Shown: one piece after another, positions 31,366 to 36,315 of the stretch
Position numbering within the stretch: position 1 is the first letter of the stretch
Layout: each line of letters begins with the position of its first letter
NCBI GenBank assembly: GCA_963734495.1
Contig: CAVTHK010000003.1
Coordinates: forward strand, 259,660 to 323,659
From: an uncultured Spirochaetota bacterium
Lineage (GTDB): Bacteria; Spirochaetota; Spirochaetia; SZUA-6; CAVTHK01
DNA: 64,000 bases
Reading direction: 5' to 3'
Notes under the pieces: generated by a model
What the model saw: the letters and a program-made list of their open reading frames with translations, nothing else
Told to the model about the DNA's origin: nothing
Database searches by the model: none
Position numbers and translations under genes: made by a program

Positions 31366-33067
31366 GCCACGTCTCGTAGAGCTTCTGGATGTCGGGGTTG
31401 AGGTGGCTCTTGCGCAGCGTCTTGCCCTCGTCCTCGCGGTAGATCGCAGCGATGCGGGCCTTGCGCACCTCATCGGTGGTAAAGCGCGGCTGGCCGCCGC
31501 CGCCGATGCAGCCGCCGGGGCAGGTCATCACTTCGACAAAGTGGTACTGGCCGGCGCCGCTCTTGATCCTCTCCATCAGGATCCGGGCGTTTCCCAGGCC
31601 GTGGGCGACCGCGGTCCGCAGCTCGACCCCTTCGAGGAAGCGCCAGTCGGGAAGCGTCCCTTCGAGCCTGATCGCCGCCTCCTTGACCCCCTGCAGCCCC
31701 TCGAGCGGCGTGACGTGGAGGCCGCCGACCGGGATCTCGCGGCCGGTCACCAGCTCGTACGCGGTGCGCAGCGCCGCCTCCATGACTCCGCCGGTATTGG
31801 CAAAGATGTCGGCCGCGCCGGTGGAGAGGCCGAGCGGGGCGTCCATCTGGTCGTCGGGGAGCGAGACGAAATCGATGCCGGCCCCGTCGATCATCTGGGC
31901 GAGCTCGCGCGTCGTGAGCACGTAGTCGACGTCCTGCTGGCCGCTTGCGTTCATCTCGGGCCGCTGCGCCTCGAACTTCTTGGCCGTGCACGGCATGACC
32001 GAGACCACGACGATGTCCTCGGCCCGCCTGCCGATCTGCTCGGCGTAGAAGGTCTTGGCCAGGGCGCCGAACATCTGCTGCGGGCTCTTGCAGGTCGAGA
32101 GGTTCGGCAGGTACTCCGGGTAGAAGTGCTCGGTGTACTTGATCCAGCCCGGCGAGCAGCTCGTGAACTGGGGGAGAGCCACCGGGCGCTTCTCGACGAG
32201 GGCTTTCTTGAGCCTCATCAGGAGCTCGGTGCCCTCCTCGACGATCGTGAGGTCGGCCGTGAAGTTGGTGTCGAAGACCTTGGCGAAGCCGAGCCGCCGC
32301 AGGGCGGAGACCATCTTGCCGGTGACCAGCGTGCCGGGCGGGAGCCCGAAGCACTCCCCGAGGGCGGCGCGGATGGCGGGCGCGGTCTGCACGATGACCA
32401 CCTTCTTCGGGTCCTCCAGGGCGCGGAAGACGCCGTCGGCGTGGCTGGACTCCACGATCGCGCCGACGGGGCAGACCGCCGCGCACTGCCCGCACTGCAC
32501 GCAGGCGACGTCGGCGAGGTTCGCCGCAAAGGCGGGCGCCACCTGGGTGCGGTAGCCGCGGTACTGCGGGAAGAGGGCGCCCACGCCCTGCACGTCGTTG
32601 CACGCGGTCACGCACCGGCGGCACTTGATGCACTTGCCGGAGTCGCGGGAAAGAGCCGGCGTGCTGCGGTCGAGCCGCACCGCGGCCTTCTCGCCCGTGT
32701 AGCGGATGTCGCGAATCCCGAGCTGGTGGGCGAGCGCCTTGAGCTCGCAGTCCTCGCTCCGGTCGCAGGTCTGGCAGTCGCCTTCGTGCTCCGACAGCAG
32801 CAGCTCGACCACCGTGCGGCGCGCGTTGCGGACGCGGCCCGTGTTGGTGCGCACCTTCATGCCGTCGGAGGCGGGGGTGGCGCAGGCGGCCGAGAGGGTC
32901 TTGGCCCCCTCGACCTCCACGACGCACACGCGGCAGGCTCCGAGGGGCGCGCGCCCCTCGAGGTGGCAGAGGGTGGGGATGTGGACCCCGGCATCCGTGG
33001 CAGCCTGGAGGATGGTCGCGCCGGGGGCGACTTTCGTTTCTCTGTCGTTGATCGTGACGCTAATCAT
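31295..33067 (-). CDS. hydA: [FeFe]-hydrogenase-like large subunit, M3 architecture (HydA/HndD type) with variant L1 motif
   Basis: Intact 590 aa. It has a 2Fe-2S ferredoxin N-terminus, HEGDCQTCDRSEDC and two ferredoxin CxxCxxCxxxCP motifs. L1 is FTSCSPGW (canonical TSCCPxW), L2 is VMPCTAKKFE, and L3 is EVMTCPGGCIGGGGQP. Confidence 0.85.
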   Translation of the reverse strand: MISVTINDRETKVAPGATILQAATDAGVHIPTLCHLEGRAPLGACRVCVVEVEGAKTLSAACATPASDGMKVRTNTGRVRNARRTVVELLLSEHEGDCQTCDRSEDCELKALAHQLGIRDIRYTGEKAAVRLDRSTPALSRDSGKCIKCRRCVTACNDVQGVGALFPQYRGYRTQVAPAFAANLADVACVQCGQCAAVCPVGAIVESSHADGVFRALEDPKKVVIVQTAPAIRAALGECFGLPPGTLVTGKMVSALRRLGFAKVFDTNFTADLTIVEEGTELLMRLKKALVEKRPVALPQFTSCSPGWIKYTEHFYPEYLPNLSTCKSPQQMFGALAKTFYAEQIGRRAEDIVVVSVMPCTAKKFEAQRPEMNASGQQDVDYVLTTRELAQMIDGAGIDFVSLPDDQMDAPLGLSTGAADIFANTGGVMEAALRTAYELVTGREIPVGGLHVTPLEGLQGVKEAAIRLEGTLPDWRFLEGVELRTAVAHGLGNARILMERIKSGAGQYHFVEVMTCPGGCIGGGGQPRFTTDEVRKARIAAIYREDEGKTLRKSHLNPDIQKLYETWLKEPLGERSHHLLHTHYAARSRL

Positions 33068-36000
33068 CGGCTGGCTCCTTGGGGTACTGCGGGGGCTGCG
33101 TGCGCCGAGGCGGCCGAGCGGCGCGGCCGCGGCGCACCTGCTCGAGGGTGAGCTCGGGCGGCGTGATCACCGTCTTCCCGAAGTCGCAGCGCAGGCACCG
33201 GCACGCCTGCTTGAGCGCCACGGCCTCGTTCCACGGGAGCTCGACCTCGTCGAAGTTGTGCCTTCGGCGCTCGACGGCGATCGAGGGCATCTTCTCCCTC
33301 GGCGTGGCCACCGGGTCGGCCTCGGGGTCGAAGAACGTGTCCTCCGTCCTCTCCGTGCGCCAGAAGGCGTTGTAGCCTCCGCTCAGGTACAGGTCCATGG
33401 CGACCGCGGCGCGTTCGCCCCCGGCGATCGCTTCGACGACCGACGACGGGCCGCTGGCCGCGTCGCCGCCGGCGAAGACCCAGTCCAGGGACGTCTGGCC
33501 GGTGACCGGATCGGCGGAGATGAAGCCGTCGTCGGTGAGCGCCACCGCCGCCCCGCCGAGGATCTGCCGCGCGTCCAGCCTCTGGCCGATCGCCGCGATC
33601 ACCTGGTCGGCCTCGACCTCGAGCTCGGCCGCGCTCGCCTTGGCGCGCCTGCGGCCGCTCCTGTCGAATTCGCCGAGCGACATGGTGACGCAGCGCAGGC
33701 CCGTGATCTTCCTGCCGCGGTCGCGCAGGACCGCGACCGGCTGCGTGAGCGTCATCAGCTCCACGCCTTCCTGCAGCGCCTCGTCGATCTCTTCGGCATA
33801 CGCCGGCATCTGCTCGCGGGTGCGGCGGTAGAGGACGGTGACCTTTTCCGCCCCGAGGCGCAGCGCCGTGCGCGCAGCGTCGATGGCGGCGTTTCCGCCG
33901 CCGATGATCGCGACCTTGCGCCCGACTTCGCACGGAGCCGCGGATGTTGTACTGCTTGAGGAACGGGACGGCCTGGACGACGCCCGGGCCCTCGGCGCCT
34001 TCGATGTCGAGCTCGATGCCTTCGGGCGCACCCACCCCGAGGAAGACGCTCTCGTAGCCCCAGTTCTTGAGGTCGGCGAGGGTAAAGTCGGCGCCGAGCC
34101 TTCGGCCGGTCTCGATGTCGACGCCCATGCGCTCGATCATGCGGATCTCGCGGGCCATGGTCTCGCGGGGCAGGCGGTAGGCGGGGATCGTCTGGGTGAG
34201 CATCCCGCCGGGCGCGGATCTCCGCCTCGAAGACCTTGGGCTTGTAGCCCAGACGGGCGAGGAAGTAGGCGCATGCGAGGCCGCCGCGGCCCCGCGCCCA
34301 CGATGGCGATCTTGCGCGCGGCGTTCGCCGCGTTCTCCCGCACCTCGGGGAGCTGAATGGTCACCTCCTGGTCGACCATGAAGCGCTTGATCGCCGCGGA
34401 CGGAGACCGGCGCGTCCAGCGACGTGCGGCGGCACTTGTCCTCGCAGGTGTGGAAACAGACGCGGCCGCAGACGGCGGCGAACGGGTTGCGCTCGCGGTG
34501 CAGCTTGAGCGCCTCGGCGTAGCGCTTCTCGGCAACCAGCGAGACGAAGCCCGGCACGTTGACCCCCGCGGGGCAGGCGCTCTGGCAGGGCGCGCGCACG
34601 AGCGAGGGGCAGACGCCCGCTTCGCAGTGGCGGTCCCGGATGTGCTGCTCGTACTCGTGGCGGAAGTGCCGTATGGTGGAGAGCACCGGGTTGGGCGCGG
34701 TCTGGCCGAGGCCGCAGAGCGCCGTCTCCTTGATCTGCTGGCCGAGCTCGACCAGCCGGTCGATGTCCTCCATGTGCCCCTTGCCCGCGCAGATCCGCTC
34801 GAGGATCTCGAGCATCCGCTTGGTGCCCACGCGGCAGGGGACGCACTTGCCGCACGACTCGTCCTGGACGAACTCCAGGAAGAAGCGCGCGACGTCGACC
34901 ATGCACGTGTCGTCGTCCATGACGATGAGCCCGCCCGAGCCCATGATCGCACCGAGCTCGGTGAGGGTCTTGTAGTCGAGCGGGACGTTGAGGTGCTCCT
35001 TGGAGATGCAGCCGCCCGACGGACCCCCGACCTGGGCGGCTTTGAAGGTCTTGCTCCCCTTGATGCCGCCGCCCACGTCGTAGATGAGCTCGCCGAGAGG
35101 CGTGCCGATCGGGACCTCGACCAGCCCGGTGTTGTTGACCGCGCCGGCGAGGGCGAAGACCTTGGTGCCCTTGCTGTCCGCGCTGCCCATGGAAGCGTAC
35201 CAGGCGGCGCCGTTGAGGATGATGGCGGGGACGTTGTTGTAGGTCTCTACGTTGTTCAGGACGGTCGGCCTGCCGCGCAGGCCCTTCTGCGCCGGGAACG
35301 GCGGGCGCGGCCGAGGCTCGCCGCGCTTGCCCTCGATCGAGGCCATGAGCGCGGTCTCCTCGCCGCAGACAAAGGCGCCGGAGCCCATGCGGATCGCGAG
35401 GTCGAAGGAGAAGCCGGTCCCGAGGATGTCCTCGCCGAGGAGCCCCCGCTCGCGCGCCTGCTTGAGCGCCGCGTCGAGCCGCTCGACCGCGAGCGGGTAC
35501 TCGGCCCGCACGTAGATGTACCCGCGGCTCGCCCCGATCGCGAAGGCGCCGATGACCATGCCTTCGATGACGCTGTGGGGGTCGCCCTCGAGGACGCTGC
35601 GGTTCATGAACGCGCCAGGGTCGCCTTCGTCGGCGTTGCAGAGGATGTACTTCTGTCCGTCCTCGGAGGCCGCCTTGCGCGTGAAGTCCCACTTCATCCA
35701 GGTGGGGAAACCGGCGCCGCCCCGGCCGCGAAGGCCCGACCGCTTGATCTCGTCGATGACCGTTTCGGGGGTCATCTGGGAGAGCACCTTGGCGAGGGCC
35801 TGGTAGCCGTCGTTGCCGATGTAGTCCTCGATGTCGAGCGGGTCGATGCGGCCGCAGTTGCGCAGCACCACCTTGGTCTGCCTGCGGAAATACTCCAGGT
35901 CCCGCTCGGTGCGCAGCTGGGCGTCGCCGTCGATCATCGTTTCCAGGACCTCGGGCACCCTGTCCTCGGTGACCCCTTCGAACCAGGCGCCGCTGGGCTG

Positions 36001-36315
36001 GAAGACCATGACCGGTCCCTTGGCGCACGGCCCGAGGCAGCCGGTCTGCACGATGCGGGCCTTGGCGCCGCGCGCCTCGAGCTCCTTTTCGAGCGCGGCC
36101 TTGACCTTGAGCGCGCCCGAAGCGAGGCAGCCGCCGCCGGTGCAGAGCCGGATCTCCATCTCGGCGGCCCGCGCGTCGCGCGCCTCCTGGACTCTCTTGC
36201 GGACGGTGTCGAGCTCCTCGATCGAGCCGATCCTGGCGGGCCCGGCCGTCCGGCTGGTCGCCTGGCCGACCTTGACCTTCACCTTGGTTTCCTTTCCGCC
36301 TTCGCCGAACTTCAT
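33060..36315 (-). pseudogene. hydB: NuoF-like flavoprotein (HydB) fused to a GltD/NfnB-like NAD(P)H:FAD oxidoreductase module; four +1 breaks between 33930 and 34400
   Basis: The ATG at 36315 overlaps the hydC stop (ATGA). The NuoF part has [23 protein letters not shown] and ESCGKCVPCRVG. The GltD part has APCQSACPAGVNVPGF, NPFAAVCGRVC, KIAIVGAGP, then [43 protein letters not shown] and FAGGDAASGPSSVVEAIAGG. The stop at 33060 overlaps the hydA start. Confidence 0.8.

What the first reader, a model, noticed from the sequence alone, without database searches (positions are those of the whole stretch)
33060..36315. NuoF-like HydB subunit fused to a GltD/NfnB-like NADPH module in a HydABC-type operon
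After repair of four +1 breaks, one ~1085-aa protein combines two modules. The first is a complete NuoF-type FMN/NADH module ([21 protein letters not shown]). The second is a complete GltD/NfnB-type module: the N-terminal cluster region APCQSACPAGVNVPGF...GRVC...CEDKC, two GxGxxG folds, and FAGGDAASG.

The gene is coupled by ATGA overlaps to a NuoE-like gene upstream and a HydA-like gene downstream. Classical bifurcating HydABC has no such module. The Sporomusa-type Nfn transhydrogenase is built from HydABC-like parts plus a GltD-like part, but as I recall the fusion partner differs. This arrangement could therefore be an NADPH-coupled bifurcating hydrogenase, or a new module order of an Stn-like transhydrogenase.
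Basis: partly seen in the sequence, partly recalled or inferred. Interest (0 to 1): 0.62.

Follow-up and report, generated by a model that had tools for sequence, protein, structure and literature searches.

The report
Hydrogenase subunit fused to NADPH module
The fusion is real: a three-gene iron hydrogenase whose NADH-binding subunit carries an NADPH/FAD module where the ferredoxin-reducing domain normally sits, but this architecture is widespread, was described from genomes in 2024, and has not been tested biochemically in any paper I could search.

Summary
On the minus strand, 36315..33060 encodes one 1083-aa protein once four single-base insertions (about 34391, 34286, 34214, 33930) are removed. 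Short-read contigs from related wetland strains lack exactly those four bases. The window has clustered +1 frame breaks elsewhere, so sequence error is the likely cause.

The protein has five parts:
- a thioredoxin-like [2Fe-2S] domain;
- a NuoF FMN/NADH core with its [4Fe-4S] cluster;
- the conserved Zn/"B2" hinge of bifurcating HydB;
- no B3/B4 ferredoxin domain;
- in its place, a circularly permuted GltD module (two [4Fe-4S], FAD, YRRT NADPH motif), most like the module in StnC/NfnA.

A NuoE-like gene lies upstream. A HydA with intact H-cluster motifs lies downstream.

The 120 best database hits are all full-length fused homologues, 65-70% identical. The fused form occurs in more than 15 phyla. 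It matches "sub-type I BfuABC" (Zheng & Huang 2024), and a similar fused HydB was noted in archaea (Greening 2024). I found no biochemical or structural characterisation.

Most likely it links H2 to NAD(H) and NADP(H) without ferredoxin. That is inference. Verdict: new member of a known, uncharacterised kind.

The parts
36312..36854 (-). hydC (bfuC): NuoE-like thioredoxin-type [2Fe-2S] subunit, 180 aa. Its TGA stop overlaps the hydB start (ATGA).
   Evidence: Pfam 2Fe-2S_thioredx at 3.5e-47. NCBIfam HoxE/NuoE models. Junction read directly.
33060..36315 (-). hydB::gltD (bfuB, sub-type I): fused 1083-aa subunit, broken in this sequence by four single-base insertions.
35938..36168 (-). N-terminal thioredoxin-like [2Fe-2S] domain ('B5' site), residues 50-126. 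Cys58/63/93/97 are invariant.
   Evidence: Pfam PF01257. Invariant columns in A1.
34642..35748 (-). NuoF core, residues 190-558: FMN/NAD(H) domain, SLBB, and the four-helix [4Fe-4S] 'B1/N3' domain (Cys488/491/494/534).
   Evidence: PF01512, PF10531, PF10589. TIGR01959 at 504 bits. Best PDB matches are the HydB/BfuB chains of bifurcating enzymes.
34609..34791 (-). Zn/'B2' hinge motif ERIC(509)...H(558)IRDRHC(564)EAGVC(569), shared with bifurcating HydB/StnB/NfnB(Bfu).
   Evidence: Residue-by-residue alignments to 7q4v_B, 7t2r_B, 8a6t_B and 8oh5_B. Zn site of 3 Cys + 1 His described in PMC9499530. The assignment of these four residues as ligands is my inference.
34362..34635 (-). Fer4_20 (DPD_II) domain, residues 561-651, carrying the two GltD-type [4Fe-4S] clusters (Cys577/581/616/620/624/628). 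It takes the place of the B3/B4 ferredoxin domain. Contains insertion 1.
   Evidence: PF14691 at 1.2e-21 and no Fer4 domain found. Alignments to 9bov_A, 8oh5_C and 4ylf_B. Cys conservation in 54 loci.
33417..34313 (-). FAD and NADP(H) Rossmann folds, residues 668-965: [21 protein letters not shown]...[14 protein letters not shown], FAGGD. Contains insertions 2-4.
   Evidence: PF07992 at 1.1e-30. YRRT motif aligned to NADPH-using NfnA, StnC, NfnB and NfnI-L. YRR present in 53 of 54 fused loci.
33174..33299 (-). C-terminal tail ...ERRRHNFDEVELPWNEAVALKQACRCLRCD. This is the permuted 'N-terminal' GltD segment and supplies Cys1039/1042.
   Evidence: It aligns to T. maritima NfnB residues 9-48 and to the segment after the GltD module in NfnA and StnC. 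Cys conserved in 53 of 54 loci.
34391..34394 (-). Insertion 1: an extra G in ...cgcggc[g]atc...
34286..34287 (-). Insertion 2: an extra C in ...gggccg[c]ggcggc...
34214..34215 (-). Insertion 3: an extra base in ...atccgc[g]cccggc...
33930..33933 (-). Insertion 4: an extra C in ...tccgtg[c]gaagtc...
31295..33067 (-). hydA (bfuA): [FeFe]-hydrogenase catalytic subunit, 590 aa, intact. It has an N-terminal [2Fe-2S], a NuoG-type 4Fe-4S, 2x[4Fe-4S], an H-domain with TSCSPGW / MPCTAKKFE / EVMTCPGGCIGGGGQP, and a small-subunit-like tail. Its start overlaps the hydB stop by 8 nt, with AAGGAG upstream.
   Evidence: Pfam. NF040763 at 869 bits, above the 765 cut-off. Best PDB matches are T. kivui and A. 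woodii HydA1; A. woodii also has TSCSPGW. Motifs in neighbouring loci. Junction read directly.

Best explanation
WHAT IT IS (shown). It is a hydC-hydB::gltD-hydA operon for a multimeric [FeFe]-hydrogenase of the BfuABC/HydABC family. It has the variant architecture published as 'sub-type I BfuABC'. The four frame breaks are single-base insertions in this particular sequence. Close relatives carry the intact gene.

HOW IT WORKS (inferred from solved relatives). HydA's H-cluster makes or splits H2. It exchanges electrons through HydA's FeS chain with the B1-FMN-C1 'flavobicluster' formed by the NuoF core of HydB and the [2Fe-2S] of HydC. NAD(H) reacts at the FMN. In canonical enzymes the low-potential outlet runs C1 > B3 > B4 > ferredoxin. 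Here the B3/B4 domain, directly after the conserved Zn/B2 hinge, is replaced by a permuted GltD module: two [4Fe-4S], FAD and an NADPH-type Rossmann fold. The second outlet is therefore predicted to end at FAD/NADP(H), not at ferredoxin.

The predicted overall reaction is 2 H2 + NAD+ + NADP+ <=> NADH + NADPH + 2 H+. In this scheme NADPH (about -380 mV in vivo) plays the 'low-potential' role and NADH (about -280 mV) the 'high-potential' role. By my own Nernst estimate, such coupling would let NADH electrons leave as H2 up to roughly 100-150 Pa H2. Alone, NADH would manage about 3 Pa. The FAD most likely acts as a plain two-electron/one-electron converter as in StnC, not as a second bifurcating flavin.
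For: Identity:
- Domain order.
- 120 of the 120 best hits are full-length fused proteins of about 1045 aa, 65-70% identical.
- Collinear alignment with 24 homologues.
- All seven closest GTDB loci with enough downstream sequence (L001-L004, L006-L008) have nuoE upstream and hydA downstream. The window falls in the same clade in trees of both halves.
- The architecture is described in PMC11406978.

Frame breaks are insertions:
- Relatives' contigs lack one base at each of the four sites.
- The same kind of difference occurs in hox.
- +1 switches cluster across the window.

Bifurcation-type core kept:
- The best PDB matches for the N half are BfuB chains of bifurcating enzymes: 7t2r_B, 7q4v_B, 8a6t_B, 8oh5_B, 9bov_B.
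- The hinge motif is conserved residue for residue.
- The thioredoxin-like domain is kept.

Ferredoxin arm replaced:
- There is no Fer4 domain. Fer4_20 starts 3 residues after NADH_4Fe-4S ends.
- B3/B4 are the ferredoxin-reducing arm and are needed for bifurcation (PMC11829005 and PMC10482914).

NADP(H):
- [34 protein letters not shown] aligns with the NADPH sites of NfnA (Csac, T. sibiricus), StnC, NfnB (T. maritima) and NfnI-L.
- YRR is present in 53 of 54 fused loci.

Non-bifurcating FAD favoured:
- The module scores higher against Bfu-type NfnA (465 bits) and StnC (411 bits) than against NfnB (368 bits).
- It shares the permuted topology of NfnA and StnC.
- The StnC FAD was shown to be non-bifurcating.

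Active hydrogenase:
- H-cluster motifs are intact, and the TSCSPGW variant also occurs in A. woodii HydA1, the catalytic subunit of a structurally solved electron-bifurcating hydrogenase.

Potentials: PMC9304861 Table 1.
Against: - No member of this architecture has been assayed or solved, as far as the searchable library shows. No PDB chain covers both halves; the best TM-score normalised to the query is 0.45.
- H2 at 1 bar can reduce both NAD+ and NADP+ directly, so energetic coupling is not required. It would matter only at low H2.
- Published opinions differ. Zheng & Huang suggest a second, FAD-based bifurcation centre. Greening et al. suggest ferredoxin is still reduced at the glutamate-synthase domain.
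- A 500-aa module may not move the way the small B3/B4 domain does.
- The AlphaFold model has pTM 0.47, so it says nothing reliable about inter-domain geometry.
- The nucleotide specificity of the FMN site was not tested.
- The hydEFG maturases were not found among the window ORFs scanned.
- In this very sequence the gene is frameshifted.
Confidence: 0.55

Rival explanations
1. It is a dual-cofactor, non-bifurcating hydrogenase. The FMN site (NADH) and the FAD site (NADPH) are two independent entry and exit points to the same FeS wire and H-cluster. Either nucleotide alone is oxidised or reduced against H2, with no energetic coupling. It would resemble the NADH-dependent, ferredoxin-independent S. 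wolfei and S. aciditrophicus enzymes, with an added NADPH port.
For: - HydB proteins that lack B3/B4 are non-bifurcating (PMC7311640 and PMC11406978).
- Deleting B3/B4 abolishes bifurcation in T. kivui.
- NADPH at about -380 mV is already close to the H2 potential.
- The module acts as a plain NADPH:FeS converter in StnC.
Against: - The family keeps the features that set bifurcating BfuB apart from non-bifurcating NuoF-like proteins: the Zn/B2 hinge and the thioredoxin-like B5 domain.
- The module is attached exactly at the hinge where the low-potential arm sits. It is not attached to HydA, where a simple 'third substrate' port would be expected, as in Stn.
Confidence: 0.2
2. It is a two-centre or four-substrate enzyme. 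In one version the GltD FAD is itself a bifurcating flavin, as in NfnB. In the other, the GltD [4Fe-4S] clusters still dock ferredoxin. The complex would then integrate H2, NAD(H), NADP(H) and ferredoxin, in effect Nfn and Hyd in one enzyme. In the extreme case it would be an H2-driven transhydrogenase.
For: - Proposed by Zheng & Huang (FAD as an extra bifurcation centre) and by Greening et al. (ferredoxin at the GltA/GltD domain).
- The Arg that contacts flavin N5 in NfnB is conserved (R713, 54 of 54 loci).
- In NfnB the two [4Fe-4S] clusters are the ferredoxin route.
Against: - The same Arg is conserved in non-bifurcating StnC, so it does not discriminate.
- A bifurcating FAD needs a second exit path, which in NfnAB is NfnA's [2Fe-2S]/FAD. 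No NfnA-like gene is in the operon.
- The module is closer to StnC/NfnA(Bfu) than to NfnB.
Confidence: 0.15
3. It is a pseudogene in this organism. The four insertions are real mutations, and the GltD half, and so the enzyme, is dead here.
For: - There are four breaks within 470 bp, while the 1.9-kb NuoF half and the 1.8-kb hydA have none.
- The insertions are not in homopolymers.
- The adjacent hox genes are also broken.
Against: - Apart from the four extra bases, the coding signal is undisturbed. The repaired protein keeps every invariant residue, and codon-position GC stays at 0.66/0.47/0.95.
- Clustered +1 switches occur in several unrelated regions of the window, as often as one per ~130 nt at 42.6-45.9 kb. 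That pattern is typical of consensus error, not of decay.
- All four breaks are +1 insertions, with no deletions or in-frame stops; natural decay would be expected to give a mix.
Confidence: 0.07
4. It is an Stn-like transhydrogenase with a new module order. The HydA-like subunit would be only an electron conduit, and the enzyme would interconvert NADH, NADPH and ferredoxin.
For: The GltD module is most similar to that of StnC/NfnA and shares its permutation. The BC core is Stn-like.
Against: - HydA has a complete H-domain with all three H-cluster motifs and passes the NCBIfam hydrogenase model.
- The ferredoxin arm B3/B4, which the Stn reaction needs, is absent.
Confidence: 0.03

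Closest known systems
Sub-type I BfuABC [FeFe]-hydrogenase (Zheng & Huang 2024, mSystems, PMC11406978). Bioinformatic description only.
   Same: - The B3/B4 domain of BfuB is replaced by a DPD_II (2x[4Fe-4S]) domain plus a C-terminal FAD/NAD(P) domain.
- It sits with bfuC and a group A3-type bfuA.
- It is reported in Spirochaetota, Planctomycetota, Verrucomicrobiota, Pseudomonadota and others. 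My closest loci come from the same phyla.
   Different: - No architectural difference was detected.
- This copy has four frame-breaking insertions and a lineage-specific 14-aa shorter linker after the thioredoxin-like domain.
- No BfuD gene is present in the operon.
Canonical electron-bifurcating HydABC (T. maritima 7P5H, A. woodii 7Q4V, T. kivui 8A6T)
   Same: - hydC/hydB/hydA gene set.
- HydA is the best PDB match at E about 1e-180.
- The HydB core, thioredoxin-like domain and Zn hinge are conserved.
   Different: The C-terminal 2x[4Fe-4S] ferredoxin-type domain (B3/B4, the ferredoxin outlet) is missing. A 500-aa GltD module replaces it.
StnABC / NfnABC (Bfu-type NADH-dependent ferredoxin:NADP+ transhydrogenases; 8OH5, 9BOV, 9N5U)
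   Same: - The BfuBC core is the same.
- The GltD module is the closest solved relative: 465 and 411 bits.
- It has the same circular permutation and the same NADPH motif.
   Different: - In Stn/Nfn the module is inserted in BfuA (StnC/NfnA), which is built from GltD-like and NuoG/FdhF-like domains rather than a hydrogenase H-domain, and BfuB keeps B3/B4.
- Here the module is on BfuB in place of B3/B4, and BfuA is a true HydA.
NfnAB (NfnSL) transhydrogenase, subunit NfnB/NfnL (4YLF, 5JCA)
   Same: The fold and cofactor motifs of the GltD module match: 368 bits, TM-score normalised to the target about 0.8.
   Different: - There is no NfnA (PyrK-like) partner.
- The module is permuted.
- The bifurcating role of the FAD is not supported.
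HydB with a glutamate-synthase domain in archaeal group F hybrid [FeFe]/[NiFe] hydrogenase clusters (Greening et al. 2024, PMC11216029)
   Same: It is a NuoF-like HydB carrying a glutamate-synthase-type domain and is proposed as the second outlet of a bifurcating hydrogenase.
   Different: The complex is different: HydA is fused to a [NiFe] small subunit, with HyhL and HydD. It is archaeal. I did not compare the sequences directly.
Non-bifurcating NADH-dependent HydABC/HydAB (S. wolfei, S. aciditrophicus)
   Same: It is a multimeric NAD-linked [FeFe] hydrogenase whose HydB lacks B3/B4. HydA falls in the same NCBIfam model, NF040763.
   Different: Those HydB proteins simply end, or lack the clusters. 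They carry no FAD/NADPH module.

Membership tests
BfuABC/HydABC multimeric [FeFe] hydrogenase | Catalytic subunit with H-cluster motifs P1/P2/P3 and an N-terminal [2Fe-2S] plus FeS F-domain | tested here: met
   TSCSPGW, MPCTAKKFE, EVMTCPGGCIGGGGQP. Pfam Fe_hyd_lg_C at 1.4e-94, Fer2_4, NADH-G_4Fe-4S_3. NF040763 at 869 bits, above 765.
BfuABC/HydABC multimeric [FeFe] hydrogenase | NuoF-like subunit with an FMN/NADH site and a B1 [4Fe-4S]; NuoE-like subunit with the C1 [2Fe-2S]; genes adjacent and co-oriented | tested here: met
   PF01512, PF10589 and PF01257. Overlapping start and stop codons.
Electron-bifurcating (BF) BfuB as defined by solved structures | Thioredoxin-like N-terminal domain (B5) and Zn/B2 hinge site (3 Cys + His) | tested here: met
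   PF01257 at residues 50-126. ERIC...HIRDxxCxAxxC aligned to 7q4v_B, 7t2r_B, 8a6t_B and 8oh5_B.
Electron-bifurcating (BF) BfuB as defined by solved structures | C-terminal 2x[4Fe-4S] ferredoxin-type domain (B3/B4) that reduces ferredoxin | tested here: not met
   There is no Fer4 domain and no CxxCxxCxxxCP motif. Fer4_20 plus Pyr_redox_2 follow the hinge instead.
Sub-type I BfuABC (Zheng & Huang 2024) | B3/B4 replaced by DPD_II plus a C-terminal FAD/NAD(P) domain in BfuB, clustered with bfuA and bfuC | tested here: met
   PF14691 at 561-651 and PF07992 at 668-965; operon context.
Sub-type I BfuABC (Zheng & Huang 2024) | Placement inside that paper's sub-type I clade | not tested
My NJ trees place the window only with L001-L008, which are Spirochaetaceae, Planctomycetota, Verrucomicrobiota, Nitrospiraceae and other MAGs.
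Stn/NfnABC transhydrogenase | GltD module inserted in BfuA; BfuA built from GltD-like and NuoG/FdhF-like domains rather than a hydrogenase H-domain; BfuB keeps B3/B4 | tested here: not met
   The module is in BfuB, HydA has the H-cluster motifs, and B3/B4 is absent.
Stn/NfnABC transhydrogenase | Permuted GltD module with an NADPH-type Rossmann fold | tested here: met
NfnAB (NfnSL) | NfnA (PyrK-like FAD/[2Fe-2S]) partner that gives the FAD a high-potential exit | tested here: not met
   There is no such gene in the operon or its flanks. The neighbours are feoB on one side and hoxF on the other.
NADPH-dependent glutamate synthase small subunit (GltD) | Partner GltB (amidotransferase / FMN / 3Fe-4S large subunit) | tested here: not met
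   There is none next to this gene. Other fused loci do have a Glu_synthase-like neighbour.
Any of the above | Catalytic activity, cofactor content, nucleotide specificity | not testable with these tools
   Needs enzyme purification and assay.

The most novel reading that the evidence does not exclude
The NuoE + NuoF::GltD pair may be a self-contained, ferredoxin-independent 'two-nucleotide' bifurcation module. It would split or merge electron pairs between the NAD(H) and NADP(H) pools. Evolution would have plugged it onto different third-substrate subunits: HydA here, and FdhA, MetVF methylene-THF reductase and a GltB-like FMN protein elsewhere. In this operon it would give an NADH+NADPH-confurcating, H2-evolving hydrogenase, or in reverse an H2-driven producer of both nucleotides. 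I found no report that this reaction has been demonstrated.
Probability: 0.3. Interest if true: 0.75.

Novelty: new member of a known kind. Interest (0 to 1): 0.4.

Why it matters
If the mechanism inferred here is right, this widespread enzyme class links H2 directly to both pyridine-nucleotide pools, with no ferredoxin involved.

That would change how H2 thresholds, NADPH supply and redox balancing are modelled for many uncultured anaerobes. The affected groups include Spirochaetota, Omnitrophota, Planctomycetota, Verrucomicrobiota, Desulfobacterota and Chloroflexota in wetlands and sediments.

It would also be a natural experiment on the still-debated Bfu mechanism: what happens when the ferredoxin arm is swapped for a flavin/NADPH module?

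For this window, the practical message is smaller. It holds one more example, probably from a high-GC wetland spirochaete, in a sequence that carries many single-base insertion errors.

Tried and rejected
1. I suspected HydA's P1 motif TSCSPGW (Ser where CpI has a second Cys) marked an inactive enzyme. Rejected: A. woodii HydA1 (7q4v) has the same motif, as do 19 of the 21 neighbouring HydA sequences in which the motif could be read.
2. I tested whether NCBIfam 'group A6, NADH-dependent' marks partners of fused HydB. It does not. HydA from non-fused loci L060 and L061 pass it too.
3. I looked for a sequence marker of a bifurcating versus a non-bifurcating FAD, namely NfnB R201 / StnC R239. The Arg is conserved in both and in all 54 fused loci, so it does not discriminate.
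4. An exact-sequence look-up of HydA to find the source contig or organism returned nothing. There are no tRNAs in the window.
5. A metatranscriptome search found only about 5% word sharing in one run, so there is no usable expression evidence.
6. The AlphaFold2 model of the fused protein has mean pLDDT 69 and pTM 0.47, with the cofactor loops disordered. I used it only for domain-level fold matches, not for inter-domain geometry.
7. My first GC3-minus-GC2 frame plot was ambiguous. I replaced it with a seven-state codon-position HMM.
8. Programmed frameshifting was rejected. Four consecutive +1 events, absent in relatives, sit within a window full of similar breaks.
9. Several papers do not mention the fusion: Schut 2022 on the Bfu family, Losey 2020 on HydB types, the 2022 [FeFe]-hydrogenase review, and the Margulisbacteria, Dehalobacteriia and Chloroflexi genome papers.
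10. I did not run the 1.84-billion-protein representative search. Its counts cannot separate fused proteins from ordinary NuoF or GltD hits.

Full report
1. THE OBSERVATION

The feature lies on the minus strand. ORF listing and three-frame translation of 36900..33000 show a reading frame that starts with ATG at 36315. It runs cleanly through a NuoF-like sequence. It then passes through frames 0>1>2>0>1 before a TAG at 33062-33060.

Reading the DNA at the four junctions shows one surplus base at each...cgcggc[g]atc......gggccg[c]ggcggc......atccgc[g]cccggc......tccgtg[c]gaagtc.... Deleting them gives a 3252-nt ORF and a 1083-aa protein.

Three independent checks support this repair:
- The repaired protein aligns without gaps across all four junctions to 24 intact homologues and restores invariant residues such as R700 and P701.
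- Logan contigs from wetland and peat metagenomes, 88-99% identical to the window, have exactly one letter 'left out' at 33930, 34214, 34286 and 34391.
- A codon-position HMM trained on hydA (GC at codon positions 0.66/0.47/0.95) switches frame at 33930/31, 34202/03, 34266/67 and 34390/91.

The same HMM finds clusters of same-strand, mostly +1 switches elsewhere: the hox genes at 37.4-42.0 kb, then 42.6-45.9 kb, 59.2-62.2 kb and 0.6-1.8 kb. Long clean stretches lie between them. Relatives' contigs again lack single bases in the hox region.

So the breaks are a property of this sequence, and relatives carry the intact gene. Consensus insertion errors are the most likely cause. True pseudogenisation cannot be excluded without the source reads.

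The downstream overlap with hydA is 8 nt (ATGATTAG), with an AAGGAG Shine-Dalgarno sequence ahead of it.

2. ANATOMY

Pfam gives these domains:
- 2Fe-2S_thioredx, residues 50-126
- Complex1_51K, 190-363
- SLBB, 387-435
- NADH_4Fe-4S, 474-558
- Fer4_20 (DPD domain II), 561-651
- Pyr_redox_2, 668-965

NCBIfam gives NuoF (TIGR01959, 504 bits) for the first half and 'NAD(P)-binding protein' PRK12771 plus GltD-type models for the second. There is no ferredoxin-type Fer4 domain.

The upstream gene (36854..36312) is a NuoE-type [2Fe-2S] protein.

The downstream gene (33067..31295) is an intact 590-aa [FeFe]-hydrogenase catalytic subunit. It carries Fer2_4, NuoG-type 4Fe-4S, 2x[4Fe-4S], Fe_hyd_lg_C and Fe_hyd_SSU domains. 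It passes NCBIfam NF040763 at 869 bits against a cut-off of 765. Its H-cluster motifs are TSCSPGW, MPCTAKKFE and EVMTCPGGCIGGGGQP. The Ser variant of P1 is also present in A. woodii HydA1, the catalytic subunit of a solved electron-bifurcating hydrogenase. It is also present in 19 of the 21 neighbouring HydA sequences in which the motif could be read. NF040763 also accepts HydA from loci with ordinary HydB, so it says nothing specific about the fusion.

Surroundings. feoB converges on hydA. A hoxFUYH-type NAD-linked [NiFe] hydrogenase operon diverges from hydC across a 545-bp spacer. uvrC, a Dam-type methylase and a Mur ligase lie further out. No hydEFG genes were found among the ORFs scanned.

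3. COMPARISON WITH SOLVED STRUCTURES

A profile of the family matches, for positions about 30-565, the BfuB/HydB chains of all solved electron-bifurcating Bfu enzymes, at 750-900 bits:
- A. mobile NiFe-HydB, 7t2r_B
- A. woodii, 7q4v_B
- T. kivui, 8a6t_B
- T. maritima, 7p5h_B
- StnB, 8oh5_B
- NfnB(Bfu), 9bov_B and 9n5u_B

For positions about 564-1035 it matches the GltD module of Bfu-type NfnA (9bov_A, 465 bits) and StnC (8oh5_C, 411 bits) better than T. maritima NfnB (4ylf_B, 368 bits).

Foldseek on an AlphaFold2 model gives the same two sets of matches. No chain covers both halves. The model is weak (pLDDT 69, pTM 0.47), so I used it for domains only.

Three residue-level alignments matter.

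(a) The hinge. ...ERIC(509)AGKG...H(558)IRDRHC(564)EAGVC(569)P... is matched almost letter for letter by A. woodii, A. mobile and T. kivui HydB and by StnB. This is the segment that forms the 3-Cys/1-His Zn site, modelled as [2Fe-2S] 'B2' in A. mobile. It acts as the hinge for the mobile B3/B4 domain (PMC9499530; PMC11829005). Naming these four residues as the ligands is my inference.

(b) The GltD module. It starts directly after the hinge at ...RAPC(577)QSAC(581)P..., where NfnA and StnC residue ~101 align.

(c) The C-terminal tail. ...ERRRHNFDEVELPWNEAVALKQAC(1039)RCLRC(1042)D aligns both to the N-terminus of T. maritima NfnB (residues 9-48...RRRNFEEV...EAQRCLQC) and to the segment that follows the GltD module in NfnA and StnC. 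The module is therefore circularly permuted in the same way as in the Stn/Nfn-Bfu enzymes. Cys577/581/1039/1042 plausibly form one [4Fe-4S] cluster and Cys616/620/624/628 the other.

The NAD(P)H Rossmann fold, [34 protein letters not shown], is nearly identical to that of the NADPH-using NfnA, StnC, NfnB and NfnI-L.

Across 54 fused loci of all kinds, residue conservation is as follows:
- Invariant: C564, C569, C577, C581, C620, C624, C628 and R713.
- 53 of 54: C1039, C1042 and YRR(828-830).
- 44 of 54: C616.

4. DISTRIBUTION AND CONTEXT

The best 120 are all full-length proteins of 1015-1060 aa with both halves, 65-70% identical. They come from Omnitrophota, Spirochaetes, Chitinispirillaceae and many unnamed MAGs. 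Where named at all, they are called 'NuoF' or 'FAD-dependent oxidoreductase'.

In the GTDB species collection, 58 of the 80 retrieved loci carry the fusion. They include Spirochaetaceae, Nitrospiraceae, Planctomycetota, Verrucomicrobiota, Armatimonadota, Bacteroidales, Chloroflexota, Desulfobacterota, Acidobacteriota, Gemmatimonadaceae, Omnitrophota, Bacillota and a Promethearchaeota (Loki) MAG. Almost all are uncultured.

A NuoE gene precedes nearly all of them. The downstream partner varies:
- HydA: 18
- MetV+MetF (methylene-THF reductase): 9
- molybdopterin FdhA: 8
- a 230-aa Fer2_4 protein plus a 525-aa Glu_synthase-like FMN protein: 6
- other: 8
- contig ends: 9

The window's closest relatives are L001-L008, at 61-68% identity in both halves. 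They form one clade in neighbour-joining trees of each half, with the window next to a Spirochaetaceae MAG. All seven with enough downstream sequence have HydA. These trees carry no support values and are only a rough guide.

A TP0584-family protein in the window also hints at Spirochaetota.

5. WHAT IS ALREADY KNOWN

[quoted passage not shown] They speculate about a second, FAD-based bifurcation centre.

Greening et al. (Cell 2024, PMC11216029) model an archaeal hybrid hydrogenase whose HydB has a glutamate-synthase domain. They propose that domain as the low-potential outlet, 'likely ferredoxin'.

Stn/NfnABC structures show the same module in BfuA, acting as a non-bifurcating NADPH entry.

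I found no assay or structure of a fused-HydB hydrogenase in the searchable library. Subscription-only literature was not searched.

6. MECHANISM

Shown:
- cofactor motifs for a [2Fe-2S] (B5), FMN/NAD(H), B1, the Zn/B2 hinge, two GltD-type [4Fe-4S], FAD and an NADPH-type site in one chain;
- C1 in HydC;
- a complete H-cluster site in HydA.

[quoted passage not shown] The arm that normally carries low-potential electrons (C1>B3>B4>ferredoxin) is replaced here by [4Fe-4S]x2>FAD>NADP(H).

The most economical reading is a ferredoxin-independent enzyme coupling H2 to both nucleotides: 2 H2 + NAD+ + NADP+ <=> NADH + NADPH + 2 H+.

I took the physiological potentials tabulated by Schut et al. (NADH about -280 mV, NADPH about -380 mV, H2 -414 mV). 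My own Nernst estimate gives these equilibrium H2 pressures:
- NADH alone: about 3 Pa
- the coupled pair: about 150 Pa
- NADPH alone: about 7 kPa

Coupling would therefore matter at the low H2 typical of wetlands.

Because the module is closer to the non-bifurcating StnC/NfnA type and has no NfnA-like second exit, I favour a simple FAD converter over a second bifurcating flavin.

My confidence that this is a sub-type I BfuABC hydrogenase operon is about 0.9. My confidence in the two-nucleotide coupled mechanism is about 0.4-0.5.

The rivals are:
- independent dual-cofactor use without coupling;
- a two-centre or ferredoxin-retaining enzyme;
- a pseudogene in this strain;
- an Stn-like transhydrogenase.

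7. VERDICT

This is a new member of a computationally described, biochemically unexplored kind.

This analysis adds four points, none of which I found stated in the papers I read:
- the insertion point sits exactly at the conserved hinge;
- the module shares its circular permutation with StnC/NfnA;
- the full set of cofactor ligands and the NADPH motif is conserved family-wide;
- the NuoE+NuoF::GltD pair is combined with at least four different catalytic partners.

Noticed in passing
window 600-1800; 37400-42000; 42600-45900; 59200-62200 (and 33930-34391): There are clusters of same-strand, mostly +1 frame switches, as dense as one per ~130 nt at 42.6-45.9 kb. Clean multi-kb stretches lie between them. 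Relatives' short-read contigs lack single bases at the sites checked. The pattern looks like localised consensus insertion errors in a draft assembly.
   Followed up: partly
window 37401-42567 (+): A hoxF(E-fused)-hoxU-hoxY-hoxH-like NAD-linked [NiFe] hydrogenase operon diverges from hydC across a 545-bp spacer (36855-37400). Two soluble nucleotide-linked hydrogenases therefore sit back to back. All the hox genes are broken by frame shifts.
   Followed up: partly
loci L012, L022, L024, L030, L034, L035, L043, L044, L054 (e.g. L024:9123-10691): In Dehalococcoidia and Desulfobacterales MAGs the same NuoE + NuoF::GltD pair is followed by MetV (DUF5981) and MetF (MTHFR). This suggests a methylene-THF reductase wired to NADH and NADPH through this module. 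The fused proteins in these loci form one clade.
   Followed up: partly
loci L017, L018, L038, L039 (Promethearchaeota Loki_b31), L046, L051 (e.g. L018:9129-11467): The fused pair is followed by a 230-aa Fer2_4/4Fe-4S protein and a 525-aa Glu_synthase (FMN-domain)-like protein. That is a glutamate-synthase-like complex with a NuoEF front end, and it also occurs in an Asgard archaeon.
   Followed up: partly
loci L010, L016, L023, L033, L036, L037, L041, L058 (e.g. L037:8946-11660): The fused pair is followed by a molybdopterin formate-dehydrogenase alpha subunit with a NuoG-like N-terminus. This is the FDH counterpart of the hydrogenase arrangement.
   Followed up: partly
window 33174-33299 (-), residues ~1005-1046: The C-terminal tail of the fused protein is the permuted N-terminal segment of a GltD/NfnB fold (RNFxEV...RCLxC). 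StnC and NfnA show the same permutation, which points to a common origin of the module.
   Followed up: yes
window ~35900-35950 (-), after residue ~129: The window protein lacks about 14 residues present in all 24 aligned homologues, just after the thioredoxin-like domain. A 90%-identical metagenome contig (X3, 35883-36072) shows no gap there, so the deletion is lineage-specific and not an error.
   Followed up: partly
window 47302-49380 (+): This ORF passes the NCBIfam TP0584-family model, named after a Treponema locus (285 bits against a cut-off of 125). Together with the Spirochaetaceae nearest neighbours of hydB, it suggests a high-GC (about 70%) wetland spirochaete as the source.
   Followed up: no
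window 16364-19840 (-): This 1158-aa ORF has a DinB (Pol IV) match only in residues 3-357. The long tail may be read-through in GC-rich sequence or a lost stop or frame error.
   Followed up: no
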